Shown in pieces: positions 15,767 through 62,170 of a stretch of DNA of 64,000 bases; the stretch's first letter is position 1, and each line of letters opens with the position of its first letter. The notes beneath the pieces were generated by a model that was given only the letters and a program-made list of their open reading frames with translations, had not been told where the DNA came from and searched no databases. The stretch is from a virus: the IMG/VR virus record IMGVR_UViG_3300030107_001446, positions 1-64,000 of that record. One strand, written 5' to 3'. Made by a program: the position numbers and the translations under genes.

Positions 15767-15770
15767 GGTC

Positions 15771-15778
15771 TATAAATA
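15771..15778 (+). promoter_or_regulatory. Late promoter TATAAATA upstream of gp20
   Basis: Exact consensus, intergenic. Confidence 0.75.
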
Positions 15779-15800
15779 TAATTAAATGGAGATAAGTTGA

Positions 15801-47427: not shown

Positions 47428-47593
47428 GAATTGTTATTCTGTTGGACCTGAAGGTGTGTTGGATACATTTCCATTACATACAGACCAACGAGATTTGTTC
47501 TTGACATCTGACCAGGTCTTGACTATACTGGATCCCTCTGCTGTTGTTGCAGAGAAATATGGAGAAGCAGTAGGTTCTGAAATTAATGAGTGA
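47336..47593 (+). CDS. Hypothetical protein upstream of gp43
   Basis: YLLGKITELDEEPSLLIENCY...LTILDP. Confidence 0.6.
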   Translation: MLKLIILKHRPQLYLLGKITELDEEPSLLIENCYSVGPEGVLDTFPLHTDQRDLFLTSDQVLTILDPSAVVAEKYGEAVGSEINE

Positions 47594-50075
47594 TTTCTAT
47601 ACAAATTTATGTCTATTAGGAAATGATATTCTCTACCGTGGGTATGAGAATGGACAACCTGTACAATACAGAGAGAAGTCACAACCAACATTGTATCTGG
47701 TACCAGATGCACAAAAGAAACCATCTAAGTATAAGACTTTAGATGGTAGGAAAGCATACCCAAAGAAGTTTGATGGTGCTAGAGAAGCAAGAGAGTTTCT
47801 TAGGCAGTATGAAGATGCTGCGGGTATGGAAGTCCATGGTTATGAGAGGTATCTGTATCAGCATATCGCTGAGAAATATCCTAGAGACATAGATTATGAT
47901 ATGACCAAGATGAAAATCTATACGATTGACATTGAGGTTGCATGTGAGAATGGTTTCCCTGATGTAGAAGCATGTGCAGAGCAGATGCTATGCATTACTA
48001 TAAAGGATTTCAATACTAAGAAGATAATCACGTGGGGTACACGAGAGTTTCAATCTCAGCATGAGTATAGAGTATTCTGGTCGGAAGATAAGATGCTTGC
48101 AGACTTTGTTGAGTGGTGGGCAAAGAATACCCCTGACATTATTACAGGATGGAACTGTAACCTCTATGACATACCTTATATTTGTCGTAGAGTAGAGAGA
48201 ATACTAGGAGAGAAGTGGAAGAAGTCTCTGTCACCTTGGAAGAGGGTGCATGACAGAGAGATTGTCATTCAAGGACGTAGGAATATTGCTTATGATCTTA
48301 CTGGTGTTAGTATTCTTGACTACCTTGACCTCTATAAGAAGTTTACTTATACAAACCAAGAGTCATATAGACTAGACCACATTGCAATGGTTGAGTTAGA
48401 TGATAAGAAGTTAGATCACTCTCAGTATGAAAACTTTAAAGACTTCTATACTAATGATTGGGATAGGTTTGTAGAGTATAACATCCATGACGTTGAACTT
48501 GTTGACCAACTGGAAGACAAGATGAAACTGGTGGAGTTGTGTGTCGCTATGGCATACGATGCCAAGGTTAACTTTGAGGATGTGTATTCTCAGGTTAAAG
48601 TATGGGACACTCTCATATATAATGACCTTAGTAAAAGAAATATTGTAGTACCACCAAGGAGTTCAACTAGAAAAGATGACAAATACGCAGGAGCATATGT
48701 CAAAGAGCCGAAGCCTGGCATCTACGATTGGGTGGTTAGTTTTGACCTCAACAGTCTATATCCTCACCTTATCATGCAGTACAACATCTCCCCCGAAACC
48801 CTCGTCGAGCGAAGACACCCCACCGCCACCGTCGAGGGAATGCTCAGTGGAGACGTTCGGATCGATGAAGACTTTGCAGTGTGTGCAAACGGAGCCCAAT
48901 ATCGGAAGGACATACATGGATTCCTCCCCGAAATGATGCAACGCATCTACGATGAGAGGACAATCTATAAGAAGAAAATGCTTAAGGCAAAGAGTGAGTA
49001 TGAAAAGAAACCAACAGCACAACTCAAGCGAGACATCGCCAAGTTCAACAACATCCAGATGGCAAGAAAGATACAACTTAACTCTGCCTATGGTGCTATC
49101 GGTAACCAATACTTCAGATATTACAATCTTGCGAACGCTGAAGCGATCACATTGTCTGGACAAGTAGCAATCCGATGGATTGAAAACAAAGTAAACAATT
49201 ATTTAAACAAAGTATTAAAAACAGAGGAGACTGATTATGTTATTGCTAGTGACACTGATTCTATTTACCTTAATCTTGGTCCTCTGGTACAAGCTGTATT
49301 CCCCAGTGGAGAGAAGGACGATCAGAGTACACTTAGGTTCCTTAAAAAGGTGTGTGATGTGGAACTTGATCGCTATATTGCGAGTGCTTATGAAGAAATG
49401 GCAACCGTTGTAAATGCTTATGAGCAGAAGATGGTGATGAAGAGAGAAAACATTGCCAACAAGGGTATATGGACAGCGAAGAAGAGATATATTTTAAACG
49501 TATGGAATAGTGAAGGTGTCCAGTATGAGAAACCTAAACTAAAGATGATGGGTATAGAGGCAGTTAAGTCTTCTACACCTATGCCATGTCGTACTGCTAT
49601 TAAGGAAGCACTTAATGTTATTATGACAGGTAGTGAGAGTGACACTCAGAAATATATTAAGGACTTCCGTGAGAGGTTTGAGAAGATGTCACCAGAGGAA
49701 GTAGCATTCCCACGTGGTTGTAATAATATACAGAAGAATACATCTAGTGCTACAATATATGGTAAGGGATGTCCCATGCATGTCAGGGGTGCATTGATGT
49801 ATAATTATCACATCAAGAAGAAGAAACTACAGCACAAGTATCCCATCATACAGGAGGGTGAGAAGATTAAATACTTACATCTTCGCACACCAAATAAGAT
49901 TAATGAGAATATAATCTCATTCTTCCAGACTCTTCCAAAGGAATTTGGGCTTGACAATTCTATTGATTATGACCTACAATTTGAGAAGAGTTTTCTTGCA
50001 CCCTTACAGGCTATACTTGATTGTATAGGGTGGAAGGCAGAGAAAATGAATACATTAGAGGCACTTTGGTCGTGA
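47586..50075 (+). CDS. gp43: DNA polymerase gp43 (family B)
   Basis: DIE exonuclease motif, [27 protein letters not shown]. Confidence 0.98.
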
Positions 50076-51079: not shown

Positions 51080-51635
51080 AGATTATATCATCACCTATGA
51101 TGATGTTCTCGATGCAAACTTTTGCAAGAATGCTATCGATTTATTCGATAACGAGATTGATAAGATAACTCGTCAGGATACTGATTTGTGTGCTTTCTCT
51201 ATGTTAAATGTCACAGAGGAAGTAGAAAAGAATCAGAATGTAAAGTTTAATCCTGTACATCAACAGTGCTTACTTGCCATCAAGTCATGTGGTGAGAAGT
51301 ATATGAAAGATTTGGATTGTGAACGTTACTGGCCTAGACAGAACTCACTAGAGCAAGTTAAGATGATGAAGTTTCAGCACAGGACTGCTGACCACTTCAA
51401 CCGTCACATAGATGTTGGTGACTATGCATCTGCTAGACGCTTTGTTACCTATCACATGTTTTTAAACGATGACTTTGAGGATGGAGACATATACTTTGAT
51501 GACATTGACTATGCTATCCCTGCAAAACGTGGTAGAGTAGTAATGTTCCCTGCGACATGGACGTTTGCTCATTCATATAGAGCACCGAAAGAGCAGGATA
51601 AGTATTCTCTTATAACCTACTTACATTATACATGA
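51069..51635 (+). CDS. 2OG-Fe(II) oxygenase (prolyl-hydroxylase-like)
   Basis: [24 protein letters not shown]. Confidence 0.8.
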
Positions 51636-53002
51636 GTTTAAAGATAGAAGAGATCACCTTAAGTAATCTCATATTTAATGAGACATATACTAGGAAGGTC
51701 TTACCATTCATAAAGGATGAGTACTTTGATACTCATACTCATAAGGTATTGTTTAATGCCTTATCAGATTATGTAAATAAATTTGAGGCTACCCCCGAAC
51801 CTAATGCCCTAAAGATAGAAGTAGAGAAACGTCGGGACATCTCCGAGGAAATATATCAGGAGGTCGAGCAGTTTCTTAATAATTTAGATAGGGAAGCGTA
51901 TAACGAGGACTGGCTTGTTGAAACCACTGAGAAGTGGTGCAAAGAAAGAGCAATTTATCTTGCTCTAATGGAGTCTGTCAAGATAGCTGACGGACAAGAC
52001 AAGACACGTACAAAGGATGCGATACCTAGTATCATGTCTGAAGCCCTTGGTGTGTGTTTTGATGATCATGTAGGACACGATTACATACAGGACTCTGATG
52101 AACGATACGACTTCTATCACAAGAAGGAAGAGAAGATACCATTTGATCTTGAGTATCTTAACAAAATTACAAAAGGTGGTCTACCTAATAAGACTCTTAA
52201 TATCGCACTTGCTGGTACAGGTGTCGGGAAGTCTTTATTCATGTGCCATGTTGCTAGCTCCGTGCTGCTCCAAGGGAGGAACGTTCTCTACATTACAATG
52301 GAGATGGCAGAGGAGAAAATTGCAGAGCGAGTTGATGCCAACCTCTTGGACATCCCAATCCAATCACTCAACGACCCACTCCTCACAAAAGAAAAATACT
52401 CCTCCAAGTTGCTTCAGTTAAAGAAGAAGACACAGGGTAAGTTAATCATCAAGGAGTATCCCACAGCATCAGCACATGTGGGTCACTTCAAGGCACTCTT
52501 AAATGAGTTGTCCATGAAGAAAGGATTTAGTCCTGATATTATATTCATAGACTACTTAAATATATGTGCTTCAGCTAGATATAAAGGGACTATAGTTAAC
52601 AGTTATACCTATGTCAAAGCGATTGCAGAAGAACTTAGAGGTTTGGCGGTTGAGTTTAATGTTCCTATCGTCAGTGCAACCCAAACAACTCGTAGTGGGT
52701 TTGCTAACAGTGATGTCGATCTTACTGATACCTCTGAGTCATTCGGTCTTCCCGCTACTGCTGACCTTATGCTTGCTCTCATCAGTACAGAAGATATGGA
52801 ACAACTCGGACAAATAATGGTCAAGCAGTTGAAGAATCGCTATAATGATCCTACAATGTATAAGAGATTCGTTGTAGGGATTGACAGAGCGAAGATGAGG
52901 CTGTATGATTGTGAGCAAAGTGCACAAGATGATATCATCGACGCAGGTGATATCGAACCAACAACTAATACTAAGAAACAATTCGAGGGATTTAAAGTAT
53001 AA
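51632..53002 (+). CDS. gp41: Replicative helicase gp41
   Basis: AGTGVGKS, ITMEM, IKEYPT, IDYLN, TQTTRSG, KQLKNRY. Confidence 0.96.
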   Translation: MSLKIEEITLSNLIFNETYTRKVLPFIKDEYFDTHTHKVLFNALSDYVNKFEATPEPNALKIEVEKRRDISEEIYQEVEQFLNNLDREAYNEDWLVETTEKWCKERAIYLALMESVKIADGQDKTRTKDAIPSIMSEALGVCFDDHVGHDYIQDSDERYDFYHKKEEKIPFDLEYLNKITKGGLPNKTLNIALAGTGVGKSLFMCHVASSVLLQGRNVLYITMEMAEEKIAERVDANLLDIPIQSLNDPLLTKEKYSSKLLQLKKKTQGKLIIKEYPTASAHVGHFKALLNELSMKKGFSPDIIFIDYLNICASARYKGTIVNSYTYVKAIAEELRGLAVEFNVPIVSATQTTRSGFANSDVDLTDTSESFGLPATADLMLALISTEDMEQLGQIMVKQLKNRYNDPTMYKRFVVGIDRAKMRLYDCEQSAQDDIIDAGDIEPTTNTKKQFEGFKV

Positions 53003-53655
53003 TGGCAGAAAATTTAACCAACCAAGCACCTTCTGATCCAGAACAGGATAAAGCTGCTGAAGAGTTGTCGAATGCTAGTCAAGATAAAGTAGACTCTAAT
53101 AAGGATCAAGCCAAACAGATGGCTGATGATGCACCAAAGACTGCTGAGGACTATGATACTGATGAGCGTATGGGTAGTGCTCCTGCTGCTCGTAAAGTAC
53201 TACAAGATAAGAAAAAGAAATCAAAAGAGAAAGGTGGTAAGAAAGAGAAGTTTGAGATTGACTTAGATAACTACATGGCATTTGTAGATAGAGTTACATC
53301 AAATGCTAGTAAGAATTTCCCTGACTTAATAGACAGATATAAAGAGTTGCATGATGCTAAGTGTAACATCTCTCGTCTTGACACTGCTGCATCAGGTATG
53401 TGCTCTGAAGCAGGTGAGTTTATGGAGATAGTTAAGAAGTTAAAGTTCCAAGGCAAACCATATAACAGAGCAAACAAAGAGCACTTAGAGAAAGAGTTGG
53501 GTGACATCATGTGGTATGTTGCACAAGCAGCACTAGCATTAGACCTTAGATTAGATGAGGTTATCTATACTAATACTCTTAAGTTAGCAGCACGTTATCC
53601 TAATCAAATGTTTGAGGTAGGATACTCAGAAAACAGAGCACCAGGGGACATATGA
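53002..53655 (+). CDS. mazG: MazG nucleotide pyrophosphohydrolase with N-terminal extension
   Basis: SEAGEFMEIVKK...KELGDIMWY...N..KL..RYP. Confidence 0.9.
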   Translation: MAENLTNQAPSDPEQDKAAEELSNASQDKVDSNKDQAKQMADDAPKTAEDYDTDERMGSAPAARKVLQDKKKKSKEKGGKKEKFEIDLDNYMAFVDRVTSNASKNFPDLIDRYKELHDAKCNISRLDTAASGMCSEAGEFMEIVKKLKFQGKPYNRANKEHLEKELGDIMWYVAQAALALDLRLDEVIYTNTLKLAARYPNQMFEVGYSENRAPGDI

Positions 53656-53993
53656 TATCATTAATACCTGACGACAACCCTAGACCAGAAGAAGAGATAG
53701 CAAACTTCTGGTCATCTGCCAATAGGGATGCTTCCTCAAAAGAGTTACTCTATGTTATGGACAATAAGATAGATGATTTACATAGGAAGTTAGATAGATT
53801 ATCAGGTGATGACTTAGTTGCACCACCAGAGGTGGAGACACATGGTAGTCTGTCAGTTGTGGTACCAATGGATGATATGAAAGACATCGTTGCTCAACTA
53901 TGGAAGTCACGTGATACTGAACCAAGGGTGGGTGAATTATGGAGAAAATATAAAGATTTAATATTTGAGCTTGACAAGGAAGAAGAAGGGTAG
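53652..53993 (+). CDS. Hypothetical protein
   Basis: 113 aa; ATGA-coupled to mazG. Confidence 0.55.
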   Translation: MISLIPDDNPRPEEEIANFWSSANRDASSKELLYVMDNKIDDLHRKLDRLSGDDLVAPPEVETHGSLSVVVPMDDMKDIVAQLWKSRDTEPRVGELWRKYKDLIFELDKEEEG

Positions 53994-53999
53994 TATATT
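53971..53999 (+). promoter_or_regulatory. Sigma70-type promoter driving the ncRNA
   Basis: TTGACA (53971-76), 17 nt, TATATT (53994-99); no ORF immediately downstream. Confidence 0.7.
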
Positions 54000-54025
54000 A
54001 AAAGGGTGAAGAAGGCCACTTCACA

Positions 54026-54203
54026 TGGGAGTGACTGAATAAACTTACTGGCATATAGCTGGTTAAGGTGATGAGACACAGGTGGTGCTGCTCCTAGGGA
54101 ACTAGGAGAATCGACTTACCAGTCGGGTCTCAGGCAGAGGAGAAATTCTAAACTGTAGAAATGCCCTCCTCTTGATGGTACACAGGACTCCATCCTCCCC
54201 ACC
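54026..54203 (+). ncRNA. Structured non-coding RNA, probably the manA RNA motif of cyanophages
   Basis: Nested stems TGAGAC/GTCTCA, CTCCTAG/CTAGGAG, CGACT/AGTCG, GAGGAG/CTCCTC, TTCTA/TAGAA, GATGG/CCATC. Family name is recalled, not computed. Confidence 0.7.
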
Positions 54204-54220
54204 CACACACAAGAGAGACT

Positions 54221-54250
54221 AAATAGAGGGTAGAGATACCCTCTATTTTT
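54221..54250 (+). terminator. Perfect 12-bp hairpin with GAGA loop and T tail ending the ncRNA
   Basis: AAATAGAGGGTA-GAGA-TACCCTCTATTT-TT, immediately before the ATG at 54251. Confidence 0.8.
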
Positions 54251-55594
54251 ATGGCTTACGAACCGTCGGAAGGATTGTTTGCAGGTCTAGCGTTGGTTCC
54301 ACATAATGTATTAGATGCAGCAAAGGATAATAAAATTTGCTTTGAGAAATTGATGAAGACTGCTAGAGATAATCTAGCAGGTCCAAAAGTGTTAGATGCT
54401 TCAGACGAAAAGACAAAGAATGGTATGATTGCTGCCACTGATATTGATTCAGCGACAGCAGCAAAACAGAAAGCAATTTATGCTGACCTAGCAGCAGCAT
54501 TGTCTGCTATACTTGGTGCTAGAAATAAAAAAGATTCTATACCAGATAATGTATACCTGACAGGTAACAAGTGGCATCCAAACGTGGAGAAGTTTAAGAT
54601 AGAAGCGTTTGGGATGAAAGATTATAATTCATCTGACGTTATCTTACAGTTTGGTAGTGAGTATCATGGTATATCTTTAAAGAAGAAACCCAAGTCACAG
54701 TCAGCAAGTCCCACCCTTATCAACAACGCATTCTCACAGTATGTTGAGGGTGATGACTTGAAGTTTGCAAAGGATATGTTGGATGACCATAGGATTAAAT
54801 TCTTTGCGGGTGTTATCAAGGAAGCATGTGATGACCCTAAGTTATTGAAGGGGTTTGCTACCAAGTATGATAAGGGTGGTAAGTCTATCGCTGATTTGAA
54901 TCCAGATAACCTTGCTGATGCTAAGGAGTTATGGAATATAAGAGTCCCAAGAGTAAAGAATAATAAGGTAGAAAATATTGCATTGATAAACCTTAAGTCT
55001 GAGAATGAGTTAGCAGACAGAGATGGTTTGGTACGAAAAATAGATTCAACTGGTAAGCAAGAAGAGTTTAGGAAGTTTGTTAACAGTAAGCTAGTCAGTC
55101 AGGGTAATGTATTGAACCCATTGTATAAGGGTTTCTTAGATATAATGAATAGACCTAAGGTCAAAGATAAACTAGCATCCACTCTATTAAATAGGGTGTT
55201 AAAGTTAAGTCTCTTAGATGAGTTGGACACTTGGGGTGACGCAGAATTTAAATTTTATCTGACAGAAGGTGTTGGAACTGTTGGTAATAACATGGAACCA
55301 CTGGTAGGACATGCTAATGTAGTTGATTTAGATAGTATTATAGTTGCTATAGCAGCATATCGTAATGCTAAGACTACTATAGAATTAAATAAGACAGAGA
55401 CATTTAGTCCAGGTAGAGAAGCAGCAAAGGTATTCTTTACTGTTGTTAAGGGTGCTGAGAGTAAGGATAGAATGCCTATACTTGATATTGAATTGAGATA
55501 CAAGGGTAGTTTCACTGCCTATCCTCAGTTCTTTGCAGGTATGACCAAGGAATTTAAGAAATTCTTAGAGACCATGGTCCCGTACTCAAACTGA
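54251..55594 (+). CDS. Hypothetical protein, possible PD-(D/E)xK-fold nuclease
   Basis: N-terminal EPSE helix; SSDVIL...GISLKK resembles the PD...(D/E/S)xK core. Confidence 0.5.
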   Translation: MAYEPSEGLFAGLALVPHNVLDAAKDNKICFEKLMKTARDNLAGPKVLDASDEKTKNGMIAATDIDSATAAKQKAIYADLAAALSAILGARNKKDSIPDNVYLTGNKWHPNVEKFKIEAFGMKDYNSSDVILQFGSEYHGISLKKKPKSQSASPTLINNAFSQYVEGDDLKFAKDMLDDHRIKFFAGVIKEACDDPKLLKGFATKYDKGGKSIADLNPDNLADAKELWNIRVPRVKNNKVENIALINLKSENELADRDGLVRKIDSTGKQEEFRKFVNSKLVSQGNVLNPLYKGFLDIMNRPKVKDKLASTLLNRVLKLSLLDELDTWGDAEFKFYLTEGVGTVGNNMEPLVGHANVVDLDSIIVAIAAYRNAKTTIELNKTETFSPGREAAKVFFTVVKGAESKDRMPILDIELRYKGSFTAYPQFFAGMTKEFKKFLETMVPYSN

Positions 55595-55633
55595 CCACTC
55601 ATCCACCCATTACCCACACTAACCTGCTATAAT
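55588..55633 (+). promoter_or_regulatory. Putative early promoter: AAACTGACCAC-N29-TATAAT
   Basis: Third copy of the motif with identical spacing. Confidence 0.55.
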
Positions 55634-55639
55634 AAAGAC

Positions 55640-56830
55640 ATGGCAAAGAACACACACCTTGAGCACCTTGAAGATGATATATTTAATCAGGGGTATGCGG
55701 GTGCAAAGAATTCAATTAACTTCCTCAAGTCATTAGAGGAGATGCTATCTACTGGTCACGGTGGTACCAATACTAGGGTGACCGTGAAGTGGGATGGTGC
55801 ACCTGCTATTATATGTGGTAAGGAACCTCAGACAGGGATGTTTTTCGTTGGCACTAAGTCAGTATTCAATAAGACTACCCCTAAGATTTGTTTCAATGAA
55901 GAGAATATAGACTATCATTATGAAGGTGCTATCAATAATATACTTAAGAAGTGTCTCAATGAGTTATCTAAACTACCTATAGATGGTGTGTTACAAGGTG
56001 ACTTATTATATTTTGACGTACCAATGGTGGTACAGATGTGTGGTAAGAAATGTTATAAGTTTAAACCAAATACCATTACATACTGTGTGGAATCAGATAC
56101 TGAGATGGGTAAGAAGGTAGGACAAAGTAAGTTAGGTATAGTATTCCACACCACATATCATGGTGATAGTATCACTGAGATGCATGCCTCTTTTGGTGCT
56201 GATGTGAAGGGTTTGCAGGGTGTTAAGGACGTTGCAGTATTCTCTTCAGACTTCCAGAATATAGATGGTAAAGCAAACCTTGGTACCTCTGAGAAAGCAA
56301 AACTTAAGACCCTAGTAGCATCTGCCGATAGGAATCTAAGAGCAGGTCAGAAATTCTTGAATGATATCAAAGAAGAGCGTGGCACGTTTGCCCATAATGC
56401 CCTGTTTAAGATATACTTCAACAGAGTAATCAAAGAGAATAGAATACCACCTTCCTCTGCTACGATGGCCAAAGGATTCTGTCACTTCGTAGATGAAAGA
56501 TACAATGCTGAGATCAATAAGAAGAAGACAGATAAGGCAAAGAAAATGTGGCAGGAAAGAAGGAACAAAGCTATAAATTACCTAAATAAAAGTAAGAGTC
56601 CAATGTATTCTGCCCTCAGTGGGTTTAGGAATCTGATGGATGCCAAACTTATTATCATAAATAAATTGAATAAGATAGAAGGAATAGGTACCTTCTTGGA
56701 AGATGAAAATGGTTACCGTGCTACTACACCTGAGGGATTTGTAGCAATCAGAGAGGGAACCGCATTGAAATTAGTTGACAGACTTGAATTTAGTCGTGCC
56801 AACTTTACCGCAGCAAAGGATTGGGGATGA
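55640..56830 (+). CDS. Ligase-like covalent nucleotidyltransferase superfamily protein
   Basis: Motif I TVKWDG, III LQGD, IIIa IVFH, IV PEGFV, V LKLV, in the correct order. Confidence 0.6.
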   Translation: MAKNTHLEHLEDDIFNQGYAGAKNSINFLKSLEEMLSTGHGGTNTRVTVKWDGAPAIICGKEPQTGMFFVGTKSVFNKTTPKICFNEENIDYHYEGAINNILKKCLNELSKLPIDGVLQGDLLYFDVPMVVQMCGKKCYKFKPNTITYCVESDTEMGKKVGQSKLGIVFHTTYHGDSITEMHASFGADVKGLQGVKDVAVFSSDFQNIDGKANLGTSEKAKLKTLVASADRNLRAGQKFLNDIKEERGTFAHNALFKIYFNRVIKENRIPPSSATMAKGFCHFVDERYNAEINKKKTDKAKKMWQERRNKAINYLNKSKSPMYSALSGFRNLMDAKLIIINKLNKIEGIGTFLEDENGYRATTPEGFVAIREGTALKLVDRLEFSRANFTAAKDWG

Positions 56831-57906
56831 ATTTTACACAATTTTTAAAAGAAGCAACCACTAAGAAGCCTGGAAAGACTGCTGCTGAAAAGAAAGCAGA
56901 AGCACAGGAGGCTGACAATCATGTGGCGATTACTTTCGGTAGGTTTAATCCTCCTCACGCTGGCCATGGTAAACTCCTCGATGCTGTTAAGGCACATGGT
57001 GGAGACTCAGGCAATTATAGAATCTATCCGTCACGGTCACAGGACCATAAGAAAAACCCCCTAGGTGCTGACCAAAAGGTTGGACACATGAGGAAGTTAT
57101 TTCCTAGTCATAAGGATGCTATCCAAAACAATGAAGCACATAGGAATGTCTTTGACATCTTACGTGACATCAATGATGAGGGTAAAGAGCATGTAACTAT
57201 GGTGGTAGGAGACGATAGAGTAAAAGAATTTGAAAAGATTACATCAAAATATAACGGAATACATTACAACTTCAAAACAATTAATATTAAGTCAGCAGGT
57301 AAGAGAGACCCTAAGTCAGAGGATCCAGTTGAGAAACTGAGTGCATCTGGACAGAGGAAGCATGCATCTGGTGACGATTACGATAACTTCCATGCAGGTC
57401 TACCTAAAGGTACCAGTAAGAAGTATGGTAAAATCTTAATGTCTGATGTAAAGGCAGGTATGACACCTCCTAAGAAGGACGGTAAGAAGAAGGTTAAAGA
57501 ATCTGTCTGGGACTATGCTCCTAAGTTAGATTATGATTCCTTCAGAGATTACTATATGCTTAATCAAATCTATAAGGTTGGAGCATTAGTAGAGCATGAC
57601 GACACAGGATTGCGTGGTCATGTAGTCCATCGTGGTACAAATTATATAATTATGAAAGACGACAAAGATATTGAGTTACGTGCTTGGTTACAACATGTTA
57701 CTGAGGTAACAGAGGATGAAGCAGCGACCATTGCTAGGGCAGCTGACACATCTAAAGACCAGTCTAACTATTCTGCTGATGATGAGAGTGGAAACACTTG
57801 GAAAATCGGAACAGATACATATAGGATAGCACTGCAACAGATGACACCTGGTCAGGGGGTCAAGAAGTTTTCTGACTTCAATGCAGAAATCAGAAATAAT
57901 AAATAA
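56827..57906 (+). CDS. HIGH-family nucleotidyltransferase (cytidylyltransferase-like)
   Basis: ITFGRFNPPHAGH, KNPL, MVVGDDR, SAGKRDP, LSAS; N-terminus MNFTQFLKE. Confidence 0.8.
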   Translation: MNFTQFLKEATTKKPGKTAAEKKAEAQEADNHVAITFGRFNPPHAGHGKLLDAVKAHGGDSGNYRIYPSRSQDHKKNPLGADQKVGHMRKLFPSHKDAIQNNEAHRNVFDILRDINDEGKEHVTMVVGDDRVKEFEKITSKYNGIHYNFKTINIKSAGKRDPKSEDPVEKLSASGQRKHASGDDYDNFHAGLPKGTSKKYGKILMSDVKAGMTPPKKDGKKKVKESVWDYAPKLDYDSFRDYYMLNQIYKVGALVEHDDTGLRGHVVHRGTNYIIMKDDKDIELRAWLQHVTEVTEDEAATIARAADTSKDQSNYSADDESGNTWKIGTDTYRIALQQMTPGQGVKKFSDFNAEIRNNK

Positions 57907-57947: not shown

Positions 57948-58538
57948 ATGACATTAGAGATGTTAGTATCGTCTGCTCTTATGGAGTATTCACAGGTAGA
58001 GCAGCAGAGAATCCTTATAGCATTAGAGGAAGGCAAAGAGATGCCAACCCCTAGACTTAAGAAGGGACTTGAGAAAATTATGGAAGTCTTAAACACTTGG
58101 GAGCCTATCGTAGAAGGTTACGCAGGATTCCCTATTGAAAGAGAACTCATTGATAGAAAGAAGCGTGAGCATGACAAGGACCGTAACATTGGTCGTGTAG
58201 TCAGACATGGTAACAACGCTTTCGTTATCAGTGGTAAGAAAGCTGACGGACGTTACATTATCGTCGGCAAAAAAGGAGAGAAAACTGCTAAAGCACCAGA
58301 GGATATGGGCTTGCAGACTCAGAAAGAATCTATTGGTATAGACATCGAAATACTTCACAGACAAATGCTTGCCGAAGCCAAGAAGGGCAAGAAAGTGAAG
58401 AGATGGTGGGATGATGATGGAGATGGTAAGGGCTATGAGAAGCACGAAGTAAAGAAAGAAGGCTTCGTGTCTAAACTTAAGGAGACAGGTATCTTCTCCG
58501 ATGAGGAACTGGCTCGTTTAGCGGAGGTTGACAAATGA
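57948..58538 (+). CDS. Hypothetical late protein
   Basis: Follows ATAAATA at about 57898; contains a KRWWDDDGDGKGYE module. Confidence 0.6.
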   Translation: MTLEMLVSSALMEYSQVEQQRILIALEEGKEMPTPRLKKGLEKIMEVLNTWEPIVEGYAGFPIERELIDRKKREHDKDRNIGRVVRHGNNAFVISGKKADGRYIIVGKKGEKTAKAPEDMGLQTQKESIGIDIEILHRQMLAEAKKGKKVKRWWDDDGDGKGYEKHEVKKEGFVSKLKETGIFSDEELARLAEVDK

Positions 58539-58903
58539 TTAATGAAGTCAACCAAAACGGTAAGTCCAATCAGGAAAACTATCTCAAAACTAAAAAGAAG
58601 GGTAACGTTACAGTTAACCCAAAAAAGGAGGATCTAATGTCCGAATTATACACAAAGAATTTACGCAACGCACTGCAAGATATTAAAGAGAAAGCAGTGA
58701 CCGCAGCAAACGAAACAAAGCAAAAAGAAAAGAAGGCACTTAAGAAGGAAGATCCTCAAGGGGGAGATGTGCAACCACAAAACCCTACATGTGAGGACCA
58801 TGATGACAGTGGTGTTAAGGCAGAGATTGCTGAGAGAATGCGTCAGCGTCTGCTCCAGCTAACTGCTGACCACGATAGTAAGTATATGCTAGAGAAAAAG
58901 TAG
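58535..58903 (+). CDS. Hypothetical charged protein
   Basis: 122 aa; ATGA-coupled. Confidence 0.55.
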   Translation: MINEVNQNGKSNQENYLKTKKKGNVTVNPKKEDLMSELYTKNLRNALQDIKEKAVTAANETKQKEKKALKKEDPQGGDVQPQNPTCEDHDDSGVKAEIAERMRQRLLQLTADHDSKYMLEKK

Positions 58904-58933
58904 TATATATAGAGTACTATACTCGTCATTATT

Positions 58934-59119
58934 ATGACTAAATTCTTACTACCTATTGCTATCAATATAATTGATAAGGCAGTAGACAAAATCCCCGAAG
59001 ACCTTGAGGATAAAATCAAGGAGTTCGTTATTGCATTGCTTAAGAAAGCTGCTGCCAAATCAGGCAACAAAGTTGACGATCAACTTGTCGCTGCTCTAGA
59101 GAAGGCACTACTTTCCTGA
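58934..59119 (+). CDS. Small amphipathic hypothetical protein
   Basis: MTKFLLPIAINIIDKAV...KSGNKVDDQLV. Confidence 0.6.
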   Translation: MTKFLLPIAINIIDKAVDKIPEDLEDKIKEFVIALLKKAAAKSGNKVDDQLVAALEKALLS

Positions 59120-59162
59120 GTTTATAAATAAAATATAGGAAACCCGTCCACGGAGAATTAAA

Positions 59163-59984
59163 ATGGCAGTCTTTGGTACAATAGACGCTGCTACGTTTGG
59201 CAATACTGTTGCTGTCACGAATGGTGATGCTACTGTTACCAAGAATGCAGCTGATAGCATCGACGTAGGAGACATCATAGTCTTAGATAGCGTTAACTAT
59301 CTTGTAAAGGAAGTAACAAGTACAACATCAATCGAATTACATAAAGTATATGCAGGTAGCACAGCAGGATCTCTTGCAGGTGCTGTTAGACGTACTGCTC
59401 CTAAGGCAGTTGCTGAGTATGTAGTTAAGGGTGGTGATAGTGTAAGTTATGACCTAGTATTCGTTGATACTACAGAGCAATCAATAGCATCAAACAAGAC
59501 AAGAGGAATCACTGGTCCTGGTTGGTGGCAGTATCAAACTTATGTAACACATAACGGTGACACACGTCACAAGGCAGAATATCTTGCACCTGCTAAAGCA
59601 ACAGCTGGTAATGCAGGAGACTTCACTGATGATACAGTCGTAGCAGACGTATTAGAAGTCATCACAGTTGGTACACAACCTGCAAACTCTACTTCTTCTA
59701 GTGGAGCTGGAACATTCGTTGCTGCTGCAACAGTGGATCAGTCAGGTACTATCACATACCAGTGGCAGAGACAGACAGCAAGTGCTACTACTCGTTGGGT
59801 AAATGTAAGTGCTTCACTTGACACAGGTATTACATATGCAAACTTCACTACAGCAACACTTGCTTACAGTGGACTAGCATCTGATGCACTAGACGGTTAC
59901 AAGTATCGCTGTGTTATTAACACAAGCAAGGGTGCTGAAACCAAGAGAACAAACGGAGCTGCCACACTTACATTCGGTAGTTAG
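59163..59984 (+). CDS. Virion structural protein with C-terminal Ig-like domain
   Basis: Late promoter at 59123; TITYQWQRQ...YKYRCVI Ig-like pattern. Confidence 0.65.
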   Translation: MAVFGTIDAATFGNTVAVTNGDATVTKNAADSIDVGDIIVLDSVNYLVKEVTSTTSIELHKVYAGSTAGSLAGAVRRTAPKAVAEYVVKGGDSVSYDLVFVDTTEQSIASNKTRGITGPGWWQYQTYVTHNGDTRHKAEYLAPAKATAGNAGDFTDDTVVADVLEVITVGTQPANSTSSSGAGTFVAAATVDQSGTITYQWQRQTASATTRWVNVSASLDTGITYANFTTATLAYSGLASDALDGYKYRCVINTSKGAETKRTNGAATLTFGS

Positions 59985-60801: not shown

Positions 60802-61229
60802 GTGAGATTAATGCAGCAATACTAGAGCGACTGGAAAGGGTCGTTGATAAATTATCTGACAACTCCACCAAGATGGGGGAGTTACTTGCTGTTCACAACG
60901 AGAAACTAGAGAAGCAAGATAGAATAGATGCTGTACTCTTTGAGAAGATAGAGTCAGTCCATAGAGAGGTTAACAGGAGATCAGATGAGATCAAAAAAGG
61001 ATGCGAGAGGGACATCAGAAAGGTCGATGACCGTCTTCGCACGATGGAAAAGAAAATGTGGTCTATTTTTGGTGCTCTGTCTGTTATATCTGTCATCGTT
61101 AGTCCAATCGGACAAAAAGTAATACAGAGCTTGACAGGTTCAGAGCAAGCTGCTACACTTGATTCAGTTAGGAACCCTGAATGGACTACGTTGAGGACAA
61201 ATATATTAGATTCCTCAACACGAGGTTAG
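60798..61229 (+). CDS. Coiled-coil protein with C-terminal TM helix
   Basis: Heptad-like LERLERVVDKL...; MWSIFGALSVISVIVSPI. Confidence 0.6.
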   Translation: MSEINAAILERLERVVDKLSDNSTKMGELLAVHNEKLEKQDRIDAVLFEKIESVHREVNRRSDEIKKGCERDIRKVDDRLRTMEKKMWSIFGALSVISVIVSPIGQKVIQSLTGSEQAATLDSVRNPEWTTLRTNILDSSTRG

Positions 61230-62170
61230 ACAAGTTTAAAAACCTAAAATCTGGAGTATACAACTTCCGTTGTCCCTACTGTGGTGATTCTCAGAAGCAT
61301 CGCAATAAGGCTCGGGGGTATTTTTTTCTCAAGAAGTCAGAATACATTTACAAATGTCACAACTGTGGTGTAGGTAGATCACTTGGTAACTTCTTGAAAG
61401 ATCATGCACCAGACTTACATGACCAGTTTGTCATGGAGAAATATAGGCAAGGCATGACAGGAAAAGGTAGGCACACACCTAACCCTAAGTACAAGTCAGC
61501 TAAGCCTAACTTTTCACCTGACTTAGAGTCTATTGACAAACTAAATAGAAAACACCCCGCAAGAATATATCTTGAGGAGAGACAGATCCCACAAGAAAAG
61601 TTGTCCTCATTATTCTACACGGAAAGGTTCAAGACTTGGATTAACAAGAAGAAACCAGGTACATTTCAGAGTCTCCAGAATGATAGACCACGCATCATAA
61701 TTCCATTAATAGGTAAGGATGGTAAGTGGTTTGGTGTGCAAGGTAGGTCTCTCCTACCTAACACTACGATGAGATACATAACCATTCTGTTTGACGAAGA
61801 CAAGCAGAAAGTATTTGGACTTAATAATGTTAAAGAAACCGAACCAGTTTACGTCGTGGAGGGACCGTTTGATTCCCTCTTCTTGGACAATTCCATTGCG
61901 ATGGCTGGGAGTGATATTGATTGCAGGACGTTTGGTTGGGGCAATTATATTTGGGTTTATGATAACGAACCTCGTAACAGACAAATCATCGACAGACTCG
62001 ACAAGTCCATCGACAGAGGAGACAAGGTAGTTATTTGGCCTAAGTCTATGAAAGAGAAAGACATTAATGATATGTTTCTCAAGGGATATAATGTACAACA
62101 GTTGGTAGACAGTAACATCTACCAAGGATTACAAGCAAAAATAAAATTAACCGATTGGAAAAAAGTATGA
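61181..62170 (+). CDS. gp61: DNA primase gp61
   Basis: CPYCGDS...YKCHNC zinc finger, VEGPFDSLF TOPRIM, YDNEPRN, KDIND. Confidence 0.95.
   Translation: MDYVEDKYIRFLNTRLDKFKNLKSGVYNFRCPYCGDSQKHRNKARGYFFLKKSEYIYKCHNCGVGRSLGNFLKDHAPDLHDQFVMEKYRQGMTGKGRHTPNPKYKSAKPNFSPDLESIDKLNRKHPARIYLEERQIPQEKLSSLFYTERFKTWINKKKPGTFQSLQNDRPRIIIPLIGKDGKWFGVQGRSLLPNTTMRYITILFDEDKQKVFGLNNVKETEPVYVVEGPFDSLFLDNSIAMAGSDIDCRTFGWGNYIWVYDNEPRNRQIIDRLDKSIDRGDKVVIWPKSMKEKDINDMFLKGYNVQQLVDSNIYQGLQAKIKLTDWKKV

What the first reader, a model, noticed from the sequence alone, without database searches (positions are those of the whole stretch)
54026..57906. Candidate new system: ncRNA + PD-(D/E)xK-like protein + KxDG ligase-like enzyme + HxGH nucleotidyltransferase
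Seen: directly after mazG come a structured RNA, a 447-aa ORF with SSDVIL...GISLKK, a 396-aa ORF with covalent nucleotidyltransferase motifs in order (KWDG, QGD, VFH, EGFV, LKLV) but no recognisable OB domain, and an overlapping FGRFNPPHAGH enzyme. Established: KxDG enzymes form a lysyl-NMP intermediate (DNA/RNA ligases, capping enzymes); HxGH enzymes make NAD+, FAD, CoA intermediates or CDP-alcohols. Inference: the coupled pair makes an activated (di)nucleotide and transfers it. Options are RNA repair against host anticodon nucleases, RNA capping or tagging, NAD+ restoration against NAD-depleting defences, or protein NMPylation. The ncRNA may be substrate or scaffold.
Basis: partly seen in the sequence, partly recalled or inferred. 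Interest (0 to 1): 0.75.

Follow-up and report, generated by a model that had tools for sequence, protein, structure and literature searches.

The report
Cyanophage ligase-like and nucleotidyltransferase gene pair
Marine cyanobacterial viruses carry, beside their DNA-replication genes, a tightly linked pair of enzymes of unknown job, one shaped like a nucleic-acid-joining ligase and one like an NAD-making enzyme, preceded in this virus by an already catalogued regulatory RNA and a restriction-enzyme-like nuclease.

Summary
The window is a T4-like cyanomyovirus. The RNA at 54006-54204 is the catalogued manA motif (Rfam RF01745, 171 bits). It has a sigma70-like promoter and a terminator that abuts the ORF1 start.

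- **ORF1 (447 aa):** folds like the monomeric restriction enzymes HinP1I and MspI (Z 7.1 and 6.4), with an invariant SD-X12-SLK.
- **ORF2 (396 aa, Pfam DUF6267):** gives a confident model (pLDDT 94). Its best 14 solved-structure matches are all RNA or DNA ligases (Z 8.3-5.9). KxDG and the later motif residues are invariant. A helical insert is present and there is no OB domain.
- **ORF3:** a T/HxGH...SxSxxR nucleotidyltransferase of NMNAT-like kind.

ORF2 and ORF3 overlap by ATGA here and are fused, in both orders, in other phages. That pair is the real unit. ORF1 fills a variable slot: 36 phage records carry it, against 468 for ORF2. manA precedes it in only 9 of 121 related loci.

None of 8 cyanophage-type genomes tested has a canonical ligase. 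I read ORF2 as a polynucleotide ligase served by ORF3, but this is inferred. The RNA as substrate or scaffold is not supported.

First readers of this scan noted the same trio or pair in seven windows of other genomes. No paper in the searched library mentions DUF6267.

The parts
53971..53999 (+). sigma70-like promoter TTGACA-17-TATATT (11 of 12), 7 nt upstream of the manA RNA
   Evidence: best of 13 promoter-like sites; the number of sites in the region is no more than in shuffles, so this is position-based only; sequence.
54006..54204 (+). manA RNA motif (Rfam RF01745), orphan riboswitch candidate / cis-regulatory leader; the only copy in this 199-kb genome
   Evidence: 171.4 bits, gathering 55.2, model 1-192; one match in the whole genome; the fold reproduces the multi-stem junction; in 4 of 4 metatranscriptome runs the summed contig depth in bin 54013-54183 is 102-798, against 0-73 in neighbouring bins. 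This is a hint only, because relatives' contigs are summed.
54221..54250 (+). intrinsic-terminator-like 12-bp hairpin plus T run, ending one base before the ORF1 ATG; probable expression platform or 3' end of the manA transcript
   Evidence: Sequence; the palindromic stem is listed on the minus strand, 12 pairs; it is a separate hairpin in both the MFE and the centroid structure.
54251..55594 (+). ORF1, 447 aa, PD-(D/E)xK nuclease-like protein of the monomeric HinP1I/MspI/HhaI restriction-enzyme kind; motif S128-D129-X12-S142-L-K144 on strands beta2/beta3; phrog_3060; no Pfam family
   Evidence: invariant residues; model pLDDT 87.4; 1ynm Z 7.1 with 204 aligned; 1sa3 Z 6.4; then Cas4-family, Hjc, AddAB nuclease and other restriction enzymes; atlas lead, RE_HaeIII in 10% of one cluster.
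55640..56830 (+). ORF2, 396 aa, Pfam DUF6267: covalent (Lys-NMP) nucleotidyltransferase fold, RNA-ligase-like. Motif I is K50-W-D-G; III is Q119-G-D121; IV is E365-G; V is K377. A helical, Lys-rich insert spans about 216-344. There is no OB domain.
   Evidence: PF19782, E 1.7e-128; invariant residues; pLDDT 94, pTM 0.91; ranks 1-14 are all ligases, Z 8.3-5.9; outside its own family the best BFVD hit is an RNA ligase, E 7.7e-4.
56827..57906 (+). ORF3, 359 aa from ATG 56827 (ORF listing gives TTG 56821); ATGA overlap with the ORF2 stop. HIGH-superfamily nucleotidyltransferase (HxGH at FGRFNPPHAGH; second motif LSASGQR), NMNAT-like, annotated 'cytidyltransferase' in cyanophages.
   Evidence: PF01467, 34.5 bits against cut-off 21; phrog_395, and the C-terminal half of the fused family phrog_455; the nearest NCBIfam models are NaMN/NMN adenylyltransferases, far below their cut-offs. 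for the start; motif alignment.
57463..57903 (+). C-terminal domain of ORF3 (about 147 aa) of unknown fold, conserved with the HxGH domain in related loci
   Evidence: the ORF3C profile follows HxGH in the related loci; no Pfam family and no named atlas cluster.

Best explanation
The locus is a conserved cassette of T4-like cyanophages whose functional core is two enzymes, not four parts.

SHOWN:
- ORF2 (DUF6267) is a divergent member of the covalent lysine-nucleotidyl transferase superfamily, nearest in fold to ATP-dependent RNA ligases. The motif I, III, IV and V residues are conserved. A basic helical bundle of about 130 residues is inserted between motifs IIIa and IV. There is no OB domain.
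- ORF3 is a HIGH-superfamily (T/HxGH...SxSxxR) nucleotidyltransferase. Its nearest relatives by sequence are NMN/NaMN adenylyltransferases. It has an extra C-terminal domain.
- The two genes are ATGA-coupled here and fused into one protein, in either order, in other phages.
- These phages carry no canonical ligase.

INFERRED:
- ORF2 self-adenylylates on K50 and seals breaks in nucleic acid. The breaks could be nicks at replication or repair joints, or broken RNA.
- ORF3 makes or regenerates its adenylyl donor (NAD+ from NMN plus ATP) or otherwise feeds the same reaction.
- ORF1 is a HinP1I/MspI-like, probably nicking, nuclease. It occupies a variable slot upstream of the pair in a minority of phages, so it is an accessory at most.
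- The manA RNA, with its promoter and terminator, is a known riboswitch-candidate leader. In this sub-clade only, it gates transcription into ORF1-3 or ends as a stable small RNA. It is not a substrate of the enzymes.
For: Fold of ORF2:
- The model has pLDDT 94 and pTM 0.91, built from 115 diverse homologues.
- VIA-align against 48,161 chains: ranks 1-14 are all ligases. These are NgrRnl 5cot Z 8.3, REL1 1xdn 8.0, Trl1 7.1/6.9, T4 Rnl2 6.7/6.6, T4 Rnl1 6.7, archaeal Rnl 6.6/6.1, and DNA ligases 6.1-5.9.
- An independent program and library (Foldseek on BFVD) gives, outside the family itself, an RNA ligase at E 7.7e-4, then further RNA ligases and a capping enzyme at weaker E.
- K50, D52, H170, G366 and K377 are invariant. 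G53, Q119, G120, D121 and E365 are at least 90% conserved.

Coupling of ORF2 and ORF3:
- ATGA overlap.
- PHROG 455 spans both proteins.
- 14 of the 150 best cluster representatives carry a fused HxGH domain: 10 as DUF then HxGH, 4 as HxGH then DUF.
- The S-PM2 591-aa fused protein matches the model at TM 0.94.
- Fused genes sit in the same place, gp43>uvsX>gp41>mazG>fusion>head gene>gp61.
- Counts among cyanophage-labelled records are nearly equal: ORF2 368+61+24, ORF3 375+61+24.

No other ligase:
- PF01068, PF09414 and PF01653 are absent from this 199-kb genome, rated 100% complete.
- PF01068 is absent in 8 of 8 cyanophage-type genomes and present in T4 and a Vibrio T4-like phage.
- DUF6267 is absent from T4 and present in the 4 other genomes of that call.
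- gp30 and RNase H are listed among 'non-cyanophage core' proteins (PMC5349666 passages). [quoted passage not shown]

ORF3:
- PF01467 is above its cut-off. Both catalytic motifs are conserved.
- The nearest NCBIfam models are TIGR00482, TIGR01526 and PRK01153.

ORF1. HhaI has the SD-X11-EAK motif and resembles HinP1I and MspI (PMC7026639, abstract and passages).

manA.
Against: - No biochemical datum exists.
- Z 8.3 is moderate. The tool's own note says a best Z of 7-8 is common for models without a clear Foldseek match.
- Foldseek against the PDB found nothing.
- Profile-versus-sequence hhalign to T4 Rnl2 and to a gp30-type ligase found nothing.
- I could not superpose residues, so the equivalence of K50 with the adenylated lysine rests on motif order and secondary structure.
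- The best matches are RNA ligases rather than DNA ligases, so a replicative role is not favoured by fold.
- Vibrio phage EniLVp02 has both a gp30-type ligase and a divergent DUF6267, so the two are not strictly exclusive. Host LigA may suffice for replication.
- About half of the cyanophage loci carry a short form of about 300 aa without the helical insert.
- ORF3 misses the NMNAT equivalog cut-offs by far: 21.9 against 112 bits and 16 against 341 bits.
- The genome has no Nampt-type partner.
- Homologues of ORF3 were found in virion proteomes of S-SZBM1 and S-CREM2 (PMC9146016 and PMC10665884 passages). A replication-ligase helper does not explain this.
Confidence: 0.45

Rival explanations
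1. RNA repair counter-defence. ORF2 is an RNA ligase that reseals host or phage tRNA or mRNA cut by host ribonuclease defences, as T4 Rnl1 does with Pnkp against PrrC. ORF3 heals or activates the ends or supplies the cofactor.
For: - The six best fold matches are RNA ligases: Rnl5, REL1, Trl1 (two entries), Rnl2 and Rnl1.
- BFVD hits outside the family are RNA ligases.
- RNA ligases in phages commonly work with partner nucleotidyltransferases (PMC7824862 passages on RlaP).
Against: - No polynucleotide kinase/phosphatase or 2H/cyclic phosphodiesterase was seen in the cassette.
- The partner is a HIGH-type, not a Pol-beta-type, nucleotidyltransferase.
- The position between helicase and primase genes is kept even in distant T4-like phages.
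- PADLOC-type and anti-defence contexts are absent.
Confidence: 0.2
2. A virion-delivered NAD+ or nucleotide-cofactor enzyme with a non-ligase partner. ORF3 is an NMNAT carried in the capsid that raises NAD+ early in infection. ORF2 uses the product to nucleotidylate a protein or to cap or tag an RNA, rather than to join strands.
For: - NMNAT-like 'cytidyltransferases' are reported in virion proteomes of S-SZBM1, S-SCSM1, S-CBWM1 and S-CREM2, with NAD+ synthesis proposed (PMC10665884 and PMC9146016 passages).
- The nearest NCBIfam models are NMN/NaMN adenylyltransferases.
- ORF2 lacks an OB or other known nucleic-acid clamp.
- A capping enzyme and a cap-binding domain appear among weaker fold hits.
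Against: - There is no Nampt-type gene in the genome, so no complete salvage route.
- ORF3 is far below the NMNAT cut-offs.
- The authors of the proteome papers themselves warn of carry-over of abundant proteins (PMC10665884 passage).
- S-SZBM1_141, the ORF2 homologue, does not occur in the main text of the S-SZBM1 paper, though the main-text table was cut off in the passages I saw.
- The Lys-rich helical insert of ORF2 looks like a nucleic-acid binder. This is an inference from composition and from the spurious basic-region hits.
Confidence: 0.15
3. No system beyond the pair. ORF1 is a free-standing endonuclease (homing-type or host-DNA-degrading). The manA RNA is an independent regulatory or small RNA. 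Both merely sit in a hot spot between mazG and the conserved pair.
For: - ORF1 is in 36 of 50,697 phage records, against 468 for ORF2.
- The slot upstream of DUF6267 holds unrelated proteins in S-SZBM1, P-TIM40, Melnitz and EniLVp02.
- manA is found in only 9 of 121 ORF1 loci, and upstream of purL in P-SSM2.
- manA has its own promoter and terminator.
- manA depth in RNA libraries greatly exceeds that of the ORFs (hint only).
Against: - Where ORF1 exists, it is followed by the HxGH gene in 78 of 79 loci with enough downstream DNA. ORF1 has diverged down to 23% identity in that same slot, which speaks for long co-residence rather than recent mobility.
- The terminator abuts the ORF1 start, as in a leader.
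- One 5,081-nt contig of an RNA library runs from inside manA through ORF1-3. This does not prove a single transcript.
Confidence: 0.5

Closest known systems
ATP-dependent RNA ligases (Naegleria NgrRnl/Rnl5, T. brucei REL1 and T4 Rnl2, T4 Rnl1, fungal Trl1 ligase domain)
   Same: The nucleotidyltransferase fold is shared (Z 8.3-6.6 over 152-189 aligned residues). The motif order KxDG ... (Q)GD ... EG ... K is shared, with invariant residues. There is no OB domain, as in RNA ligases.
   Different: - No sequence-level match to PF09414, or to T4 Rnl2 by hhalign.
- The accessory module is a helical bundle inserted inside the catalytic domain (about 216-344), not an N- or C-terminal domain.
- There is an invariant N-terminal HLEHLED segment (H9).
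- It has an obligate HIGH-type nucleotidyltransferase partner, often fused.
T4 gp30 and other ATP-dependent DNA ligases (PF01068); NAD+-dependent LigA (PF01653)
   Same: Same superfamily fold (Chlorella virus, T4, T7, human and archaeal ligases at Z 6.0-5.2). It lies in the replication gene block of phages that lack gp30.
   Different: There is no OB domain and no DNA-binding domain of the known kinds, and no profile match. It co-exists with a gp30-type ligase in Vibrio phage EniLVp02.
NMN/NaMN adenylyltransferases (NadD, NadR, archaeal NMNAT) and other HIGH-superfamily nucleotidyltransferases (PF01467)
   Same: ORF3 has the G-x-F-x-P-x-(H/T)-x-G-H motif and a later S-x-S-x-x-R motif. PF01467 is above its cut-off. 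The nearest NCBIfam models are NMNAT-type.
   Different: - It falls far below every equivalog cut-off.
- It has an extra C-terminal domain of about 147 aa with no known family.
- It is linked or fused to a ligase-like enzyme.
- There is no Nampt partner as in phage NAD+ salvage pairs (PMC7824862 passage).
Monomeric type II restriction endonucleases HinP1I, MspI, HhaI (PD-(D/E)xK)
   Same: ORF1 aligns over 204 and 198 residues at Z 7.1 and 6.4. Its invariant SD-X12-SLK sits on consecutive strands, like SD-X11-EAK of HhaI (PMC7026639 abstract).
   Different: - ORF1 is about 200 residues longer.
- The middle position is Ser, not Glu/Gln/Asn.
- There is no adjacent methyltransferase.
- It is a phage gene in a fixed slot next to the ligase-like pair.
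- Z is below the level at which the tool counsels trust.
manA RNA motif (Weinberg et al. 2010, Rfam RF01745)
   Same: Full-length match at three times the gathering score, in a T4-like cyanophage, in a 5' leader position (PMC2864571 passages).
   Different: The gene classes that the main text of PMC2864571 names downstream of manA are mannose/fructose metabolism, nucleotide synthesis, ibpA and photosynthesis. Here the downstream genes are a nuclease-like, a ligase-like and an HxGH enzyme. The full list is in a supplementary file that I could not open.

Membership tests
Rfam RF01745 manA RNA | Covariance-model score at or above the curated gathering score over the whole model | tested here: met
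   171.4 bits against 55.2, model positions 1-192 of 192.
Rfam RF01745 manA RNA | Cis-regulatory position in a 5' leader | tested here: met
   Promoter-like site at 53971-53999, the RNA at 54006-54204, a terminator hairpin at 54221-54250, then the ORF1 ATG at 54251. Regulation itself is not shown.
Rfam RF01745 manA RNA | Ligand-dependent switching (riboswitch) | not testable with these tools
   The passages I read name no ligand (PMC2864571, PMC9964418). The MFE fold shows no evident anti-terminator.
Covalent nucleotidyltransferase superfamily (ATP/NAD+ ligases, capping enzymes) | Motif I KxDG with the nucleotidylated lysine | tested here: met
   K50 and D52 are invariant and G53 is at least 90% conserved in 115 homologues. 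The motif sits at the end of strand 45-50. That K50 is the adduct site is inferred.
Covalent nucleotidyltransferase superfamily (ATP/NAD+ ligases, capping enzymes) | Motifs III, IIIa, IV and V in order on the beta strands of the fold | tested here: met
   Q119-G120-D121 lie on strand 117-124. F141 and Y148 lie on strands 136-151. E365-G366 lie at the start of strand 366-371. K377 lies on strand 374-378. The assignment is by order and secondary structure, not by superposition.
Covalent nucleotidyltransferase superfamily (ATP/NAD+ ligases, capping enzymes) | Nucleotidyltransferase-domain fold | tested here: met
   VIA-align ranks 1-14 are all ligases, Z 8.3-5.9. A BFVD RNA ligase matches at E 7.7e-4. 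Foldseek against the PDB gave nothing, so support is moderate.
Covalent nucleotidyltransferase superfamily (ATP/NAD+ ligases, capping enzymes) | Formation of a covalent enzyme-NMP intermediate | not testable with these tools
   Needs labelling with alpha-32P ATP or NAD+, wild type against K50A.
Canonical DNA ligases (gp30 type PF01068; LigA PF01653) and capping enzymes | Profile match to the adenylation domain, and an OB domain after motif V | tested here: not met
   There is no PF01068 or PF01653 match in the genome. Only DUF6267 is found on ORF2. hhalign to a gp30-type ligase finds nothing. The model ends with one helix after motif V.
Named RNA ligase families (Rnl1, Rnl2/REL1, Rnl3, Rnl5; PF09414) | Profile match and the family's signature accessory domain | tested here: not met
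   There is no PF09414 match. hhalign to T4 Rnl2 finds nothing. The accessory module is an internal helical insert. The fold is nearest to these families, so it works like them at most.
HIGH-superfamily nucleotidyltransferases (PF01467 CTP_transf_like) | Profile above the curated cut-off, the (H/T)xGH motif and the second SxSxxR-type motif | tested here: met
   34.5 bits against 21, and 33.9 bits in the genome search. The motifs are FGRFNPPHAGH and LSASGQR. Homologues mostly have PPTxGH and MSASKxR.
NMN/NaMN adenylyltransferase equivalogs (TIGR00482, TIGR01526) | Score above the equivalog cut-off | tested here: not met
   21.9 against 112.45 bits and 16 against 341.15 bits. The substrate remains open.
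Phage NAD+ salvage pair (Nampt plus NMNAT) | A nicotinamide phosphoribosyltransferase gene in the same genome | tested here: not met
   PF04095 is absent from the complete 199-kb genome.
PD-(D/E)xK nucleases | Alpha-beta-beta-beta-alpha-beta core with an acidic residue at the start of strand 2 and (D/E/other)xK on strand 3 | tested here: met
   Helix 70-90; strands 100-103, 130-134, 137-146 and 157-160; helix 168-193. D129, S142 and K144 are invariant in 51 homologues. Of the first 13 fold rows, those I recognise by title as PD-(D/E)xK nucleases are 1-6, 8 and 13.
HinP1I/MspI/HhaI-type monomeric restriction endonucleases | Two-sheet catalytic plus recognition architecture, and sequence-specific nicking or cleavage | tested here: inconclusive
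   Z 7.1 and 6.4 with 204 and 198 aligned residues, and Z 3.4 for HhaI. These are below the level the tool advises trusting. There is no sequence match. Activity was not tested.

The most novel reading that the evidence does not exclude
DUF6267 plus its HIGH-type partner is a previously unrecognised two-component ligase of the ocean's T4-like cyanophages and their relatives. The ligase module has no OB domain and uses an internal helical clamp. It is fed by a dedicated adenylyltransferase that regenerates its nucleotide donor, for example NMN + ATP -> NAD+, on the same complex or polypeptide. The system stands in for the missing gp30 ligase and possibly, together with the ORF1 nicking nuclease, for missing primer-removal functions. 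Part of it may be delivered in the virion.
Probability: 0.2. Interest if true: 0.8.

Novelty: new variant of a known kind. Interest (0 to 1): 0.62.

Why it matters
T4-like cyanophages are among the most abundant viruses in the sea. The pair studied here is almost universal in them: 453 and 460 cyanophage-labelled records. One member is still a Pfam 'domain of unknown function', and no paper in the searched library mentions it. The other is annotated 'cytidyltransferase', with its function called unclear (PMC9146016 passage).

Three things follow from showing that the DUF is a ligase-fold enzyme welded to a HIGH-type nucleotidyltransferase:
- It gives a concrete, testable candidate for how these phages, which lack gp30 and RNase H homologues, join nucleic-acid strands.
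- It defines a new architecture within the ligase superfamily: an internal helical insert, no OB domain, and a partner enzyme.
- It adds a new gene context for the orphan manA riboswitch candidate, which could help in guessing its ligand.

Tried and rejected
- **Sequence searches of the PDB.** Single-sequence searches found nothing for ORF2 or ORF3, and only E 0.12 to SepRS for ORF1. Profile searches gave only low-complexity or basic-helix hits.
- **Foldseek against the PDB.** No match at E <= 0.001 for either model. ORF2 gave carbonic anhydrase noise. ORF1 gave weak class II aaRS-like rows at E > 0.05, which I do not interpret.
- **hhalign of the DUF6267 alignment.** Nothing against T4 Rnl2 or against the EniLVp02 gp30-type ligase. 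Single-sequence templates make this a weak test.
- **NCBIfam and PADLOC.** Nothing for ORF1 or ORF2, and no defence-system model for any of the three.
- **Missing N-terminal half of DUF6267 in the 'cytidyltransferase' of S-SM2-type phages.** No signal. Their short DUF6267 gene lies elsewhere, next to a helicase gene.
- **Strict gene displacement of gp30 by DUF6267.** Weakened by EniLVp02, which has both.
- **Late-promoter box ATAAATA.** 16 sites in the window against 19.7 expected, and none upstream of ORF1 or ORF2.
- **Anti-terminator pairing between manA and the terminator.** Not evident in the MFE or centroid fold.
- **RNA libraries.** In runs X2 and X5 the bins just after manA (54184-54696) have no contig cover. 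All four runs are contigs, so levels, ends and strands cannot be read.
- **ORF3 C-terminal domain.** No Pfam family (best E 0.088) and no named atlas cluster. A weak BLASTP likeness to ORF4 (E 0.056) was not pursued.
- **Literature.**
  - 'DUF6267' and 'cytitidyltransferase' gave 0 papers.
  - PMC5029184 (Syn9 transcriptome) is not held, so I have no expression timing.
  - PMC3037559 has no text hit for 'cyti'.
  - PMC12801897 passages concern a different TagD-like gene.
Additional file 3 of PMC2864571 (genes next to each manA RNA), Table S7 of PMC9964418 and the T4-GC tables of PMC3037559 may bear on the gene-context and core-gene statements.
- **Recalled, not from a call.** HinP1I and MspI carry Q and N at the middle catalytic position. 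S-PM2 has a genome of 196,280 bp; I used this only to recognise locus L198. LigA needs an N-terminal NMN-binding domain.

Full report
**Where we are.** The window reads as a T4-like cyanomyovirus. The genes run in this order on the plus strand:
- gp43 DNA polymerase (47586-50075)
- UvsX
- a 2OG-Fe(II) oxygenase
- gp41 helicase (51632-53002)
- MazG (53002-53655)
- a 113-aa ORF
- the finding itself
- small ORFs and a head-protein gene
- gp61 primase (61181-62170)

The closest DNA matches in the phage collection are all cyanophages: 106 records, none covering 80% of the 4.1-kb query. The same gene order is annotated in P-TIM40, S-SM2, Syn33, Sf-CH8 and S-SZBM1. The window's own genome is a 199,258-bp virus record rated 100% complete.

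**The RNA.** The structured RNA is the manA motif.
- Rfam RF01745 scores 171.4 bits against a gathering score of 55.2, across the full model, at 54006-54204.
- It is the only copy in the genome.
- A TTGACA-17-TATATT site ends 7 nt before it.
- A 12-bp hairpin with a T run (54221-54250) ends one base before the ORF1 ATG.
- The hairpin folds apart from the aptamer in the MFE and centroid structures.

Weinberg et al. 2010 described manA as a riboswitch candidate of marine metagenomes and T4-like cyanophages. [quoted passage not shown] A 2023 paper still calls its role unverified (PMC9964418, passages).

In P-SSM2 the matching RNA lies between regA and purL. Among 121 IMG/VR loci that carry an ORF1 homologue, nhmmer with the window's manA sequence found the RNA upstream of ORF1 in 9. 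All 9 are from the window's own sub-clade. A single-sequence nhmmer search can miss divergent copies.

The RNA is therefore a known, mobile leader element that has landed here. I find no support for it being a substrate or scaffold.

In four metatranscriptome runs from four studies, the summed contig depth over the manA bin is 102-798, against 0-73 in neighbouring bins. One 5,081-nt contig runs from inside manA to beyond ORF3. These are contigs, relatives' contigs are summed, and DNA carry-over is possible. At most this hints that manA accumulates as a stable RNA.

**ORF2.**
- *Family.* Pfam places it in DUF6267 (E 1.7e-128). The family is large. The word-index search scored 8,000 of its 8,000 capped candidates at E <= 0.001. 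The exhaustive search found 2,546 cluster representatives at E <= 0.001.
- *Conservation.* An alignment of the window protein with 114 representatives (31-59% identity) has invariant H9, K50, D52, G60, P63, F68, Y148, H170, G366, K377 and N388. Nearly invariant are G53, Q119, G120, D121, E365, D380 and R381, among others.
- *Model.* AlphaFold2 gives pLDDT 94.0 and pTM 0.91.
- *Fold search in solved structures.* Foldseek against the PDB finds nothing. The Foldseek-independent VIA-align search of 48,161 chains puts ligases in all of ranks 1-14:
  - NgrRnl 5cot (Z 8.3, 184 aligned)
  - REL1 1xdn (8.0)
  - fungal Trl1 (7.1, 6.9)
  - T4 Rnl2 (6.7, 6.6)
  - T4 Rnl1 (6.7)
  - archaeal RNA ligases (6.6, 6.1)
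  - DNA ligases (6.1-5.9)
- *Fold search in viral models.* Foldseek against BFVD first finds the family itself, including the 591-aa S-PM2 'cytidyltransferase-like' protein at TM 0.94. It then finds an RNA ligase of phage Atu_ph07 (E 7.7e-4), followed by further RNA ligases and a capping enzyme at weaker E.
- *Motifs.* The conserved residues fall on the strands where ligase motifs I (K50-x-D-G), III (Q-G-D121), IV (E365-G) and V (K377) belong.
- *Insert and C-terminus.* Between them, residues about 216-344 form a Lys-rich helical bundle. After motif V there is one helix only, so there is no OB domain.
- *Limits.* Sequence profiles of known ligases do not match. I could not superpose residues.

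The claim is therefore 'ligase-superfamily fold with the catalytic motif set, nearest to RNA ligases'. It is not membership of any named ligase family.

**ORF3.**
- PF01467 matches at 34.5 bits (cut-off 21) over residues 37-152.
- The motif FGRFNPPHAGH and a later LSASGQR are present. In fused and other homologues these read PPTxGH and MSASKxR.
- The nearest NCBIfam models are NaMN/NMN adenylyltransferases, but far below their cut-offs. The substrate is therefore open.
- The last ~147 residues have no known family.
- The cyanophage literature calls this gene 'cytidylyltransferase' with unclear function. It reports the protein in virion proteomes of S-SZBM1 (S-SZBM1_140, 2 peptides) and S-CREM2, and NMNAT-like proteins in S-SCSM1 and S-CBWM1 virions. 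The authors caution that carry-over is possible (PMC9146016 and PMC10665884, passages).
- The genome has no Nampt-type gene.

**Linkage of ORF2 and ORF3.**
- Here the ORF3 ATG overlaps the ORF2 stop as ATGA.
- PHROG 455 is a 764-position family whose N-terminal half matches ORF2 and whose C-terminal half matches ORF3.
- Of the 150 best DUF6267 representatives, my profiles find a fused HxGH domain in 14: 10 downstream of DUF6267 and 4 upstream. Pfam itself confirms 3 of the 10 longer proteins I submitted.
- One further protein has a GxFxPxHxGH motif in an unexplained extension. Twelve others have unexplained extensions.
- Fused genes in 80 IMG/VR loci lie in the same place as here. Fifteen loci show the full order gp43>uvsX>gp41>mazG>fusion>head gene>gp61, and the rest show parts of it.
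- In the phage collection ORF2 hits 468 records and ORF3 hits 558. The counts are nearly equal among records named Synechococcus, Cyanophage or Prochlorococcus: 368/61/24 for ORF2 and 375/61/24 for ORF3.
- ORF3-like genes also occur without DUF6267 in jumbo enterobacterial and Pseudomonas phages.
- In Methylophilales phage Melnitz, DUF6267 follows gp41. One gene further on there is a 650-aa protein with CTP_transf_like and DUF5824 domains.

The pair is thus linked by neighbourhood, coupling and fusion in both orders.

**ORF1.**
- It has no Pfam family. It matches phrog_3060, of unknown function.
- 703 relatives were found by the word-index search, but only 36 of 50,697 phage records carry it, all cyanophages.
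- A 51-sequence alignment (23-84% identity) has invariant T104, G105, W108, Y125-N-S-S-D129, I131, G140, S142-L-K144 and others.
- The model has pLDDT 87.4. It shows a helix (70-90), four strands (100-103, 130-134, 137-146, 157-160) and a helix (168-193). D129 sits before strand 2 and S142-x-K144 on strand 3. This is the PD-(D/E)xK layout.
- VIA-align ranks HinP1I first (Z 7.1, 204 aligned) and MspI second (Z 6.4). They are followed by a Cas4-family protein, Hjc resolvases, the AddAB nuclease domain and other restriction enzymes. Foldseek finds nothing significant.
- HhaI, HinP1I and MspI are related monomeric enzymes that cut one strand at a time. HhaI carries SD-X11-EAK (PMC7026639, abstract and passages). 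ORF1 has SD-X12-SLK.
- The Z values are below the level the tool advises trusting. The coherence of the list and the invariant motif make the nuclease fold credible, but membership of that restriction-enzyme group is inconclusive.

**Is ORF1 part of the system?**
- Of 121 loci with an ORF1 homologue, 79 have at least 2,600 nt downstream.
- In 78 of those 79, an HxGH gene follows within 3 kb. A full-length DUF6267 lies between in 24, a short (~300 aa, insert-less) DUF6267 in 23, and none in 31. One locus (L049) has neither. Many of these contigs are close relatives and are not independent.
- In the S-SM2 type the short DUF6267 gene lies elsewhere, next to a helicase gene.
- Conversely, phages with the pair mostly lack ORF1. 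The slot before DUF6267 holds unrelated proteins in S-SZBM1, P-TIM40, Melnitz and EniLVp02.

ORF1 is a long-standing but optional neighbour.

**The missing-ligase argument.**
- The window's genome has no match to PF01068, PF09414 or PF01653, and none to the 5'-3' exonuclease family of T4 RNase H.
- PF01068 is absent from all 8 cyanophage-type genomes tested: own, Melnitz, P-TIM40, S-SM2, Syn33, P-SSM2, Sf-CH8 and S-SZBM1. It is present in T4 and in Vibrio phage EniLVp02.
- DUF6267 is absent from T4 and present in the four others of that call.
- Published comparisons list gp30 and RNase H among 'non-cyanophage core' proteins (PMC5349666, passages). [quoted passage not shown]
- DUF6267 keeps its place between the helicase and primase genes even in EniLVp02, next to a UvsW.1-domain protein.

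This makes a strand-joining role in DNA metabolism attractive. However, EniLVp02 has both enzymes, the fold is nearest to RNA ligases, and host LigA may suffice.

**Verdict.**
The pair ORF2+ORF3 is a real, widespread functional unit of unknown activity, with a new ligase-superfamily architecture.
- The nuclease is an optional neighbour. The RNA is the known manA leader.
- My preferred mechanism is that ORF2 is a K50-adenylylated polynucleotide ligase fed by the NMNAT-like ORF3. This is inferred, at about 45%.
- First readers of this scan noted the same trio or pair in seven windows of other genomes. No follow-up on them was shown.
- My library searches for 'DUF6267' and 'cytitidyltransferase' found no paper. 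The papers I read treat only the HxGH gene and leave its function open.

Noticed in passing
window 54013-54183: In four marine metatranscriptome runs from four studies, the contigs over the manA RNA have far higher depth (102-798 summed; one 185-nt contig at 186) than contigs over the flanking genes (0-73). This suggests manA accumulates as an abundant, stable RNA in the sea. Contigs of related phages are summed, so it is only a hint.
   Followed up: partly
window 57948-58903: ORF4 (196 aa) matches only the first 176 of 492 positions of phrog_27523. The homologous gene in S-SZBM1 and P-TIM40 is about 455 aa and was detected in the S-SZBM1 virion proteome (S-SZBM1_139). Here it seems shortened or split into ORF4 plus the 122-aa ORF that overlaps its end (PMC9146016 passage).
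   Followed up: partly
window 57463-57903 and 57948-58535: The C-terminal domain of ORF3 and ORF4 share a weak motif (GHVVHRGTNYII against GRVVRHGNNAFVI; BLASTP E 0.056). PHROG families labelled 'cytidyltransferase' also hit the ORF4 homologue of S-SZBM1. There may be a shared small domain, perhaps for virion association.
   Followed up: no
window 56657-56663, 57899-57905, 59124-59130: ATAAATA late-promoter-like boxes lie inside ORF2 (about 165 nt before the ORF3 start), just before ORF4, and just before the head-protein gene. The motif is not enriched in the window (16 against 19.7 expected).
   Followed up: no
L136 (S-SM2 53466-54374) and P-SSM2 58606-59469: In phages where DUF6267 is not next to the HxGH gene, a short form of about 300 aa without the helical insert sits elsewhere. 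In S-SM2 it is two genes after a helicase gene. About half of the cyanophage loci examined carry this short form.
   Followed up: partly
L093 (Vibrio phage EniLVp02 147065-148147): A Straboviridae Vibrio phage has a divergent DUF6267 (E 7e-35) between gp41 and gp61, next to a UvsW.1-domain protein and without an adjacent HxGH gene. It also has a gp30-type ligase elsewhere.
   Followed up: partly
L092 (Melnitz 14914-16866): The HxGH enzyme of Methylophilales phage Melnitz is 650 aa and carries a DUF5824 domain after the nucleotidyltransferase domain.
   Followed up: no
public records seen: Probable misannotations in this gene neighbourhood: a 728-aa DUF6267-containing protein of phage metaG-MbCM1 named 'NrdB ribonucleotide reductase A subunit'; the HxGH gene of RB11-B named 'tail fiber protein'; and a 113-aa gene after mazG in Syn33 named 'terminase large subunit'.
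   Followed up: no
representatives P0252, P0254, P0270, P0278, P0293, P0334, P0346, P0359: Eight of the 150 DUF6267 representatives have unexplained N-terminal extensions of about 110-250 aa. Five have unexplained C-terminal extensions of up to 388 aa. Pfam finds no domain in the ones I scanned.
   Followed up: partly
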